A stretch of DNA of 64,000 nucleotides, taken from the NCBI GenBank assembly GCA_964016885.1, contig OZ024748.1, positions 44,268,001 through 44,332,000 on the forward strand. The letters are read 5' to 3'. Positions 39,543 through 40,887 of this stretch are shown here, in pieces. The stretch comes from Eledone cirrhosa (Eukaryota). The notes beneath the pieces were generated by a model. The model saw only the letters and a list, made by a program, of their open reading frames with translations. It ran no database searches and had not been told where the DNA came from. The translations under genes and the position numbers were made by a program. Numbering within the stretch: position 1 is the stretch's first letter; each line of letters starts with the position of its first letter.

Positions 39543-39647
39543 GTGTGTGTATGTGAAGTAATTCCGTCGGAAAAGTCCAGGAAAAAAGAGTGCTCTATGT
39601 AGGTAACAGAGCTTAATAGTTATGTAATAAACAACATAAGGCAATTA

Positions 39648-39708
39648 TTTCATTTACCAGTGGTTTCTTAAAAGCAAAAAAATTTTGCTTTCAATCATCA
39701 GAATAAAA
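39648..39708 (-). ncRNA. Type I hammerhead ribozyme (left arm)
   Basis: TTTTATT-CTGATGA-TTGAAAGCAA...TTGCTTTTAA-GAAA-CCACTGG-TA-AATGAAA. Confidence 0.78.
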
Positions 39709-39866
39709 AAATCCTGGCGTATTTATTGACTTTGGATTTTAAAAACAAAAATGCAATCTATATGAAAGTGAGGCTGGAGAAGGAAGAAGGAAAGGAAAAA
39801 TAAAATAAAAACACACATGCAAACACACACACACATACAATTATATACATACACAGATATATATAT

Positions 39867-40439
39867 GGCATACGTCAAGACGGGCGGTCTCAAAAGTGAA
39901 AGTAAATTTATTTTCATTTTCGAACGTCGTGTTTACATTTTGTGTGTGTGTTTAGATCTAAATTAGTGTCATTTTAACTGATTATATATATATATGTATA
40001 TGTGTGTGTGTGTGTGTGTAGTTGACGGTTGAGAGAAGAGTACTCAATACCGAAGTAATCTTGTAATGAGGCTTGCAGAATGGTGAGTCCGCCATTCTAG
40101 ATGCTGCTGCCTTGCAGAAGTCCCAAATCGAAGCTCTGCCACTCTCGTCCCCATCATTCAGCAGAGATTTTGCCAGGCAGCCGCATCACCTCCGATGGTT
40201 GGGCTTCCTATTCGGAAATTGACGGTGGGATTTACGTTCATGATGTTGTGGTGCACGAACGGAACTTTGTAGATCCTGCGGACCTTGATGTGCACACACA
40301 GCTCATAGAGAACACATGGCGCCGTGCAAAGAAGAAGCTTCGTCGCCAGCATGTTTCCTTTGAACACACAAAATGTAAACACGATGTTCGAAAATGAAAA
40401 TAAATTTACTTTCACTTTTGAGACCACCCGTCTTGACGT

Positions 40440-40444
<5 letters not shown>
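39867..40444 (+). mobile_element. Internally deleted Merlin (IS1595/ISXO2-like) DNA transposon
   Basis: 81-bp TIRs starting GGCATACGTCAAGACGGG; ATATATAT on both flanks; frameshifted transposase EVPNRSSATLVPII / ILPGSRITSDGWASY...NFVDP...HTQLIENTWRRAK. Confidence 0.85.
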
Positions 40445-40484
<40 letters not shown>

Positions 40485-40760
40485 ATACACACACATGTAT
40501 ATATGTATGTATATGTATGCATATGTTGATATTTATGTGTGTATGTATGTGTATATGTATGTGTATGTATATATGTGTGTGTGTGTGTATGTATGTATAC
40601 ATATATATATGTGTGTGTATGTATATAATTGTGTGTGTGTGTGTGTTTGCATGTGTGTTTTTATTTTATTTTTCCTTTCCTTCTTCCTTCTCCAGCCTCA
40701 CTTTCATATAGATTGCATTTTTGTTTTTAAAATCCAAAGTCAATAAGTACGCCAGGATTT

Positions 40761-40821
40761 TTTCATTCTGATGATTGAAAGCAACATTTTTTTGCTTTTA
40801 AGAAACCACTGGTAAATGAAA
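40761..40821 (+). ncRNA. Type I hammerhead ribozyme (right arm)
   Basis: Stem I TTTCATT/AATGAAA, CTGATGA, 10-bp stem II, GAAA, stem III CCA/TGG, GUA triplet (predicted cut after 40814). Confidence 0.8.
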
Positions 40822-40887
40822 TAATTGCCTTATGTTGTTTATTACATAATTATATATATATATATAACTATATATATATATATATAT

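What the first reader, a model, noticed from the sequence alone, without database searches (positions are those of the whole stretch)
39617..40852. Second, unrelated twin-hammerhead foldback with a Merlin transposon at its centre
Seen: ~235-bp inverted arms unrelated in sequence to the 23.3-kb palindrome, each with a canonical hammerhead (GUA triplet) in the same outward orientation, enclosing a TA/TG spacer and a Merlin remnant with its own 81-bp TIRs. The same architecture from a different family suggests a recurrent mechanism. Inference: Merlin inserted into the foldback spacer, or its TIR hairpin templated duplication of the flank.
Basis: partly seen in the sequence, partly recalled or inferred. 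Interest (0 to 1): 0.75.

Follow-up and report, generated by a model that had tools for sequence, protein, structure and literature searches.

The report
Inverted Penelope stub, later Merlin insertion
The mirror-image repeat is real, but it is two back-to-back ends of a very common Penelope-type jumping gene, each with a predicted self-cutting ribozyme, in a layout already described for that class, and an unrelated Merlin transposon most likely landed inside one of them afterwards, so it is ordinary.

Summary
The arms (251 nt, 97%), both hammerhead motifs and the Merlin remnant with 81-bp TIRs are real. The arms are the pseudo-LTR of an abundant Penelope-like retroelement with Hydra-clade motifs: the same sequence sits directly before an RT/endonuclease ORF in 20 of 30 ORF loci, and its ribozyme core has 1,414 exact matches. 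Among the first 100 matches listed, 16 neighbours within 10 kb face outward and none inward; none of the 16 holds this Merlin, and 15 carry the 'tail' on one arm only. The 'spacer' is element 3' UTR. Merlin is a separate family, encloses no arms at 29 other loci, and sits inside the left copy, 52 nt from the inversion junction, so it is not the centre and did not template the duplication. Inverted 5'-truncated copies, one-sided tails and opposite-strand hammerhead pairs are published for Penelope-like elements, and this scan noted such foldbacks before in at least 20 genomes. Priming from both cut target strands is the likeliest origin (inferred). Read support and cleavage were not tested. Low interest.

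The parts
39189..39553 (.). (TA)n/(TACA)n target tract, left flank
39554..39616 (-).
   Evidence: continues into 5' UTR and ORF in full-length copies
39617..39866 (-). Left copy: 3' UTR end and pLTR of the Penelope-like element
39648..39708 (-). Type I hammerhead motif, left copy; predicted cut after 39655; one C-to-U change in stem I leaves a G-U pair
39859..39866 (.). ATATATAT, compatible with an 8-bp Merlin target duplication (partner 40445-40452); not provable inside a TA tract
39867..40444 (+). Non-autonomous Merlin element, 578 bp, GG...CC ends, TIRs 39867-39947 and 40364-40444
40101..40397 (+). Transposase remnant, 98 aa, DDE_Tnp_IS1595 profile positions 73-138 of 153
40445..40496 (-). 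5' continuation of the left copy beyond Merlin, up to the inversion junction at about 40496
   Evidence: reverse orientation fits family 3' UTR better in 60 of 62 upstream regions
40496..40853 (+). Right copy: 5'-truncated 3' UTR and pLTR, tail-less, ending in (TA)n
40761..40821 (+). Type I hammerhead motif, right copy; stem I 7 bp, stem II 10 bp, palindromic stem III; predicted cut after 40814
40853..40887 (.). (TA)n target tract, right flank

Best explanation
The foldback is a pair of 5'-truncated 3' ends of an abundant Hydra-type Penelope-like retrotransposon set head to head in a (TA)n tract, likely made in one insertion event, and a short Merlin DNA transposon likely jumped into the left copy later. 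Shown: the arm is the repeat that flanks an RT/endonuclease ORF; outward pairs are common genome-wide without Merlin; one arm ends at a proximal site and the other 63 nt further on; Merlin is nested in the left copy. Inferred: the element's GIY-YIG nuclease cuts both strands of AT-rich DNA, each 3' end primes a cDNA (one from the distal start site, giving the tail, one from the proximal site), both stop early and are joined at their truncated ends (about 60% for this step). The hammerheads are passengers of the pLTR: any one transcript carries only one of them in sense, and a read-through RNA is predicted to pair arm with arm.
For: Arm directly upstream of tail, 5' UTR and ORF in 20 of the 30 ORF-start loci fetched; a full arm downstream of the ORF in 13 of 20 long loci. 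ORF has RWK, DKT, YRDD, CxCx5C, CxxC, CxH, the Hydra signature (PMC8557442 section 11); its model (pLDDT 87) matches reverse transcriptases, telomerases among them, best E 1.6e-06. 1,414 exact core matches; in the first 100 listed, 16 outward, 0 inward, 1 direct neighbour pairs under 10 kb, 0.33 expected. Tail on exactly one arm in 15 of 16 pairs, p = 0.0005 against 50%. In the window each copy holds sequence the other lacks (tail; extra 3' UTR), so neither was copied from the other. Merlin: 902 candidates, 8-9-bp duplications at unique sites, TA-rich flanks at 16 of 22 loci with both ends found. In vitro a Penelope-like protein cuts and extends both strands and has two RT start sites that bound the tail (PMC11167929).
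Against: Pfam, NCBIfam and PDB sequence searches did not recognise the ORF, and no GIY-YIG structure is among the fold matches shown, so the nuclease and clade calls rest on motifs, with no tree. 5 of 11 short pairs are near-perfect palindromes with equal truncation points, which fits fold-back better than two independent cDNAs. The arms are not each other's nearest relatives: left-right 4 of 191 differences, left-L031 1 of 191. No target duplication is readable in (TA)n. The tail (63 nt) is longer than the published 30-40 nt. The inversion was not checked against reads.
Confidence: 0.92

Rival explanations
1. Same element, but the inverted copy arises by self-priming (fold-back) of the template or cDNA during one insertion, as proposed by Arkhipova et al. 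2013.
For: 5 of 11 short pairs have equal truncation points and palindromic centres; the proposal is in PMC3846280 (passages).
Against: In the window, and in L136, the tail-less copy reaches further 5' than the tailed copy, which a simple fold-back of one cDNA cannot give.
Confidence: 0.3
2. Two separate insertions of the same family, the second landing in a TA tract of the first in opposite orientation.
For: The family targets (TA)n and its 3' UTR is full of TA tracts; the arms are not mutual nearest neighbours.
Against: Chance nesting predicts inward and direct pairs too; seen 16 outward, 0 inward, 1 direct. Both arms share the two subfamily marks. The left copy's 3' sequence does not resume beyond the right copy.
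Confidence: 0.06
3. One reading: the Merlin TIR hairpin templated duplication of its flank.
For: Merlin lies between the arms and 10 nt of TA extend its TIR symmetry.
Against: 0 of 16 other pairs contain the TIR; 0 of 29 other Merlin loci are enclosed by arms; at L054 this Merlin sits in a single copy's 3' UTR with no foldback; junction is 52 nt from the Merlin end; the two flanks are unequal.
Confidence: 0.02
4. Assembly artefact (a foldback read).
For: No read check was obtained.
Against: Arms differ at 7 of 251 sites, have different ends, and enclose unique sequence; the layout recurs with distinct junctions.
Confidence: 0.02

Closest known systems
Hydra-clade Penelope-like elements (Craig et al. 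2021, PMC8557442), e.g. Penelope-13_HM and Hydra-1_Obim
   Same: RWK, DKT, CxCX5C, CxxC, CxH motifs; (TA)n targets; type I hammerhead near the 3' end with a four-pair stem III round a one-base loop; Penelope-13_HM is listed with a 5'-truncated inverted copy and a hammerhead on both strands (supplement).
   Different: A different family by hammerhead sequence; long microsatellite-rich 3' UTR; tail of about 63 nt; clear pLTR tandems.
EN+ Penelope insertions with inverted pLTR and one-sided tail (PMC3846280; PMC8557442 Fig. 2 legend)
   Same: Inverted 5'-truncated copy at the 5' end, tail on one end only.
   Different: Here both copies are truncated to about 360 nt, with no ORF left.
Opposite-strand hammerhead pairs of Schistosoma PLEs (Cervera and De la Pena 2014, PMC4209133)
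   Same: Two hammerheads about 100-700 bp apart on opposite strands; long stem II, palindromic stem III.
   Different: Stem III is present here, not reduced to the minimal form; a Merlin widens the gap.
Merlin DNA transposons (PMC8101967)
   Same: GG termini, TIRs within 24-462 bp, 8-9-bp duplications, DDE_Tnp_IS1595.
   Different: Internally deleted, non-autonomous 570-620-bp family.
Non-LTR retrozymes
   Same: Non-coding, type I hammerhead, PLE-related.
   Different: Retrozymes are head-to-tail tandem repeats; this is a head-to-head pair.

Membership tests
EN+ Penelope-like element | pLTR flanking one ORF in tandem or partial tandem | tested here: met
   arm upstream in 20 of 30 loci, downstream in 13 of 20
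EN+ Penelope-like element | Reverse transcriptase domain | tested here: met
   YRDD; fold matches to RTs and telomerases; not found by Pfam or NCBIfam
EN+ Penelope-like element | C-terminal GIY-YIG endonuclease | tested here: inconclusive
   VY...YVG with invariant Y373, Y391, G393 in 121 sequences; no profile or fold hit names it
EN+ Penelope-like element | Type I hammerhead in the pLTR | tested here: met
   (motif only; cleavage untested)
EN+ Penelope-like element | Inverted 5'-truncated copy and one-sided tail | tested here: met
   16 outward pairs, 15 with one tail
Hydra clade | RWK, DKT, CxCX5C, CxxC and CxH; no CX2-5CxxC | tested here: met
Hydra clade | Insertion into (TA)n | tested here: met
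Hydra clade | Placement in an RT tree with named Hydra families | not tested
   no reference sequences were available as tool sequences
Merlin | TIRs beginning GG, 24-462 bp | tested here: met
   81 bp
Merlin | 8-9-bp target duplication | tested here: met
   exact at L068, L070, L071, L072; only compatible at the window's own site
Merlin | DDE_Tnp_IS1595 transposase | tested here: met
   fragment, E 8e-09
Non-LTR retrozyme | Head-to-tail tandem units each with a hammerhead | tested here: not met
   no such array at this site; 1 direct pair among 17 close pairs
Active hammerhead ribozyme | Self-cleavage after GUA | not testable with these tools
   needs a cleavage assay

The most novel reading that the evidence does not exclude
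A dimer of this Hydra-type protein primes both cut target strands in a coordinated way from two fixed RNA start sites about 63 nt apart, so that about a third of all copies are born as outward foldbacks with exactly one tail; the hundreds of junctions in this genome would then be a direct record of the unsolved inverted-insertion step of Penelope-like elements.
Probability: 0.45. Interest if true: 0.35.

Novelty: new member of a known kind. Interest (0 to 1): 0.13.

Why it matters
The locus itself is a nested pair of dead transposon fragments. Its only wider value is as one of many natural junctions (32 of the first 100 listed copies lie in outward pairs) that could help decide how Penelope-like elements form inverted insertions, which Craig et al. 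2021 list as unexplained.

Tried and rejected
Rfam scan of the window: only microsatellite-driven miRNA rows among the 150 of 345 shown. Pfam, NCBIfam and PDB sequence searches with the ORF: nothing informative. The protein atlas gave no result. Arm-arm against TIR-TIR divergence: 7 of 251 and 2 of 81, the same range, so it cannot order the events; nesting does. Sequencing runs were listed (3 hold about half of the words) but no reads were laid, so read support is open. Rejected: long-TIR DNA transposon (ends are unequal and interiors differ); retrozyme (not tandem); cooperating twin ribozyme (opposite strands). A link of the 23.5-kb foldback family to a PLE ORF was inconclusive: endonuclease-like hits in 3 of 15 loci.

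Full report
Observation. The region holds inverted arms at 39616-39866 and 40603-40853, 251 nt with 7 mismatches. Each contains a type I hammerhead motif facing outward: stem I 7 bp, CUGAUGA, stem II 10-12 bp, GAAA, a short palindromic stem III and a GUA triplet, with predicted cuts after 40814 (+) and 39655 (-). For the 61-nt right motif the hammerhead fold is within 0.1 kcal/mol of the best fold; with 76 nt of context another fold wins. Between the arms lies a 578-bp element, 39867-40444, with 81-bp TIRs (2 mismatches) and a DDE_Tnp_IS1595 fragment (E 8e-09).

What the arms are. A search of the own genome (3.0 Gb) gave 1,707 candidates, 40 scored, and a 28-base core pattern has 1,414 exact matches against 0 for the reversed control. 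Copies have two 3' ends: a short one at the arm end and a long one about 63 nt further on. The long extension is the start of the element body. In 20 of the 30 loci fetched with the ORF start, a full or partial arm lies directly upstream of tail, 5' UTR and ORF; 4 more keep only the tail and 6 neither. In 13 of 20 longer loci chosen from these, a full arm follows the ORF. The arm is therefore a pseudo-LTR. The ORF was not recognised by Pfam, NCBIfam or PDB sequence searches. It has 1,197 homologues of similar length, and a model built from 121 sequences (pLDDT 87) matches reverse transcriptases, including telomerases. It shows RWK, DKT, YRDD, CxCx5C, a VY...YVG pair, CxxC and CxH, the list given for the Hydra clade (PMC8557442, section 11 read whole). 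The clade call rests on motifs; no tree was built.

The foldback is routine for this family. Among the first 100 matches listed (contig C1), neighbours within 10 kb are 16 outward, 0 inward and 1 direct, with 0.33 expected by chance. All 17 were fetched. None contains the Merlin TIR. In 15 of the 16 outward pairs exactly one arm has the tail, in 1 both do (p = 0.0005 against 50%; 13 tailed and 17 tail-less among the 30 best single hits). The window fits: tail at 39616-39554 on the left copy, none on the right. Junctions differ from pair to pair.

The centre. The right copy's 3' UTR reaches back to about 40496. The stretch 40474-40496 fits family 3' UTR better in reverse orientation in 60 of 62 upstream regions, and a 20-mer from it matches exactly in 21 regions reversed and 1 forward. 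So the left copy continues past Merlin to about 40496, and Merlin interrupts one of its TA tracts, 52 nt from the junction. Merlin is its own family (902 candidates) with exact 8- or 9-bp duplications at L068, L070, L071 and L072 and TA-rich flanks at 16 of the 22 loci where both ends were found. Of 29 other loci, 27 have no arm within 1.5 kb, L054 lies in the 3' UTR of a single copy, and L075 has a small pair beside it, not round it.

One event or two. The arms share both subfamily marks (each in about 35 of 79 arms) and differ at 4 of 191 sites, against a mean of 6.6% for all pairs; but the left arm is closer to a copy at L031 (1 difference), and the sample is biased towards the query.

Mechanism. 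Published: inverted 5'-truncated copies and a one-sided 30-40-bp tail are typical of these elements (PMC8557442, passages; PMC3846280, passages); opposite-strand hammerhead pairs 100-700 bp apart occur in Schistosoma PLEs, and such motifs cleave weakly and as dimers (PMC4209133, parts 1-2 of 4); a Hydra family with an inverted copy and hammerheads on both strands is listed in the supplement of PMC8557442 (part 2 of 59 and a term search). A purified Penelope-like protein cuts and extends both strands of AT-rich DNA and starts reverse transcription at two sites that bound the tail (PMC11167929, parts 1-2 of 4). I infer priming from both target strands with joining of two truncated cDNAs. For it: here each copy holds sequence the other lacks. 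Against it: 5 of 11 short pairs have equal truncation points, as self-priming would give. A read-through RNA is predicted to pair 237 of 251 left-arm bases with the right arm, and carries only one hammerhead in sense. Merlin features are from PMC8101967 (passages); the retrozyme definition from bioRxiv 10.64898/2026.07.22.740005 (part 1 of 5; its supplements were not seen and could list related families). Five paper searches were run; I make no claim that this family is unpublished.

Earlier notes. None near this place; 44 findings in at least 20 genomes hold the same key words and the 8 shown read such foldbacks the same way. I had reached the reading before seeing them; they are not independent support.

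Verdict. Real, explained, ordinary: a stub-sized inverted insertion of a Hydra-type Penelope-like element with a later nested Merlin. Read support and ribozyme activity remain untested. Interest 0.13.

Noticed in passing
window 23348-23800: The other foldback belongs to a small family (29 candidates) that is mostly foldback, with one arm about 28 nt longer than the other and centres clustered at nearly the same point; hammerhead-like motif at 23616-23645. It shows the same one-sided-tail signature, but its fixed centre differs from the variable junctions of the family studied here.
   Followed up: partly
window 55630-57108 and 58834-58882: A second Hydra-like RT/endonuclease ORF (41% and 35% identical to this family's) with another type I hammerhead downstream.
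   Followed up: partly
window 60303-60259, 18422-18356 and about 24319 (all minus strand): Further type I hammerhead motifs of other families, the last degenerate.
   Followed up: no
window 40888-41220 (+) and 23860-24180 (-): Two copies of one repeat with a tRNA-like head (SINE label from recall), about 95% alike, one beside each foldback across a TA tract.
   Followed up: partly
L075-L079 and similar loci: A Merlin variant of about 690 bp whose inverted ends extend to 210 bp.
   Followed up: no
L054 and L114: This Merlin family also sits in TA tracts of single copies of the same Penelope-like family.
   Followed up: partly
L032, L039, L126: Large versions of the same layout, with kilobase inverted 3' UTR or ORF pieces, and other LINEs and hammerhead modules nested in them.
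   Followed up: partly
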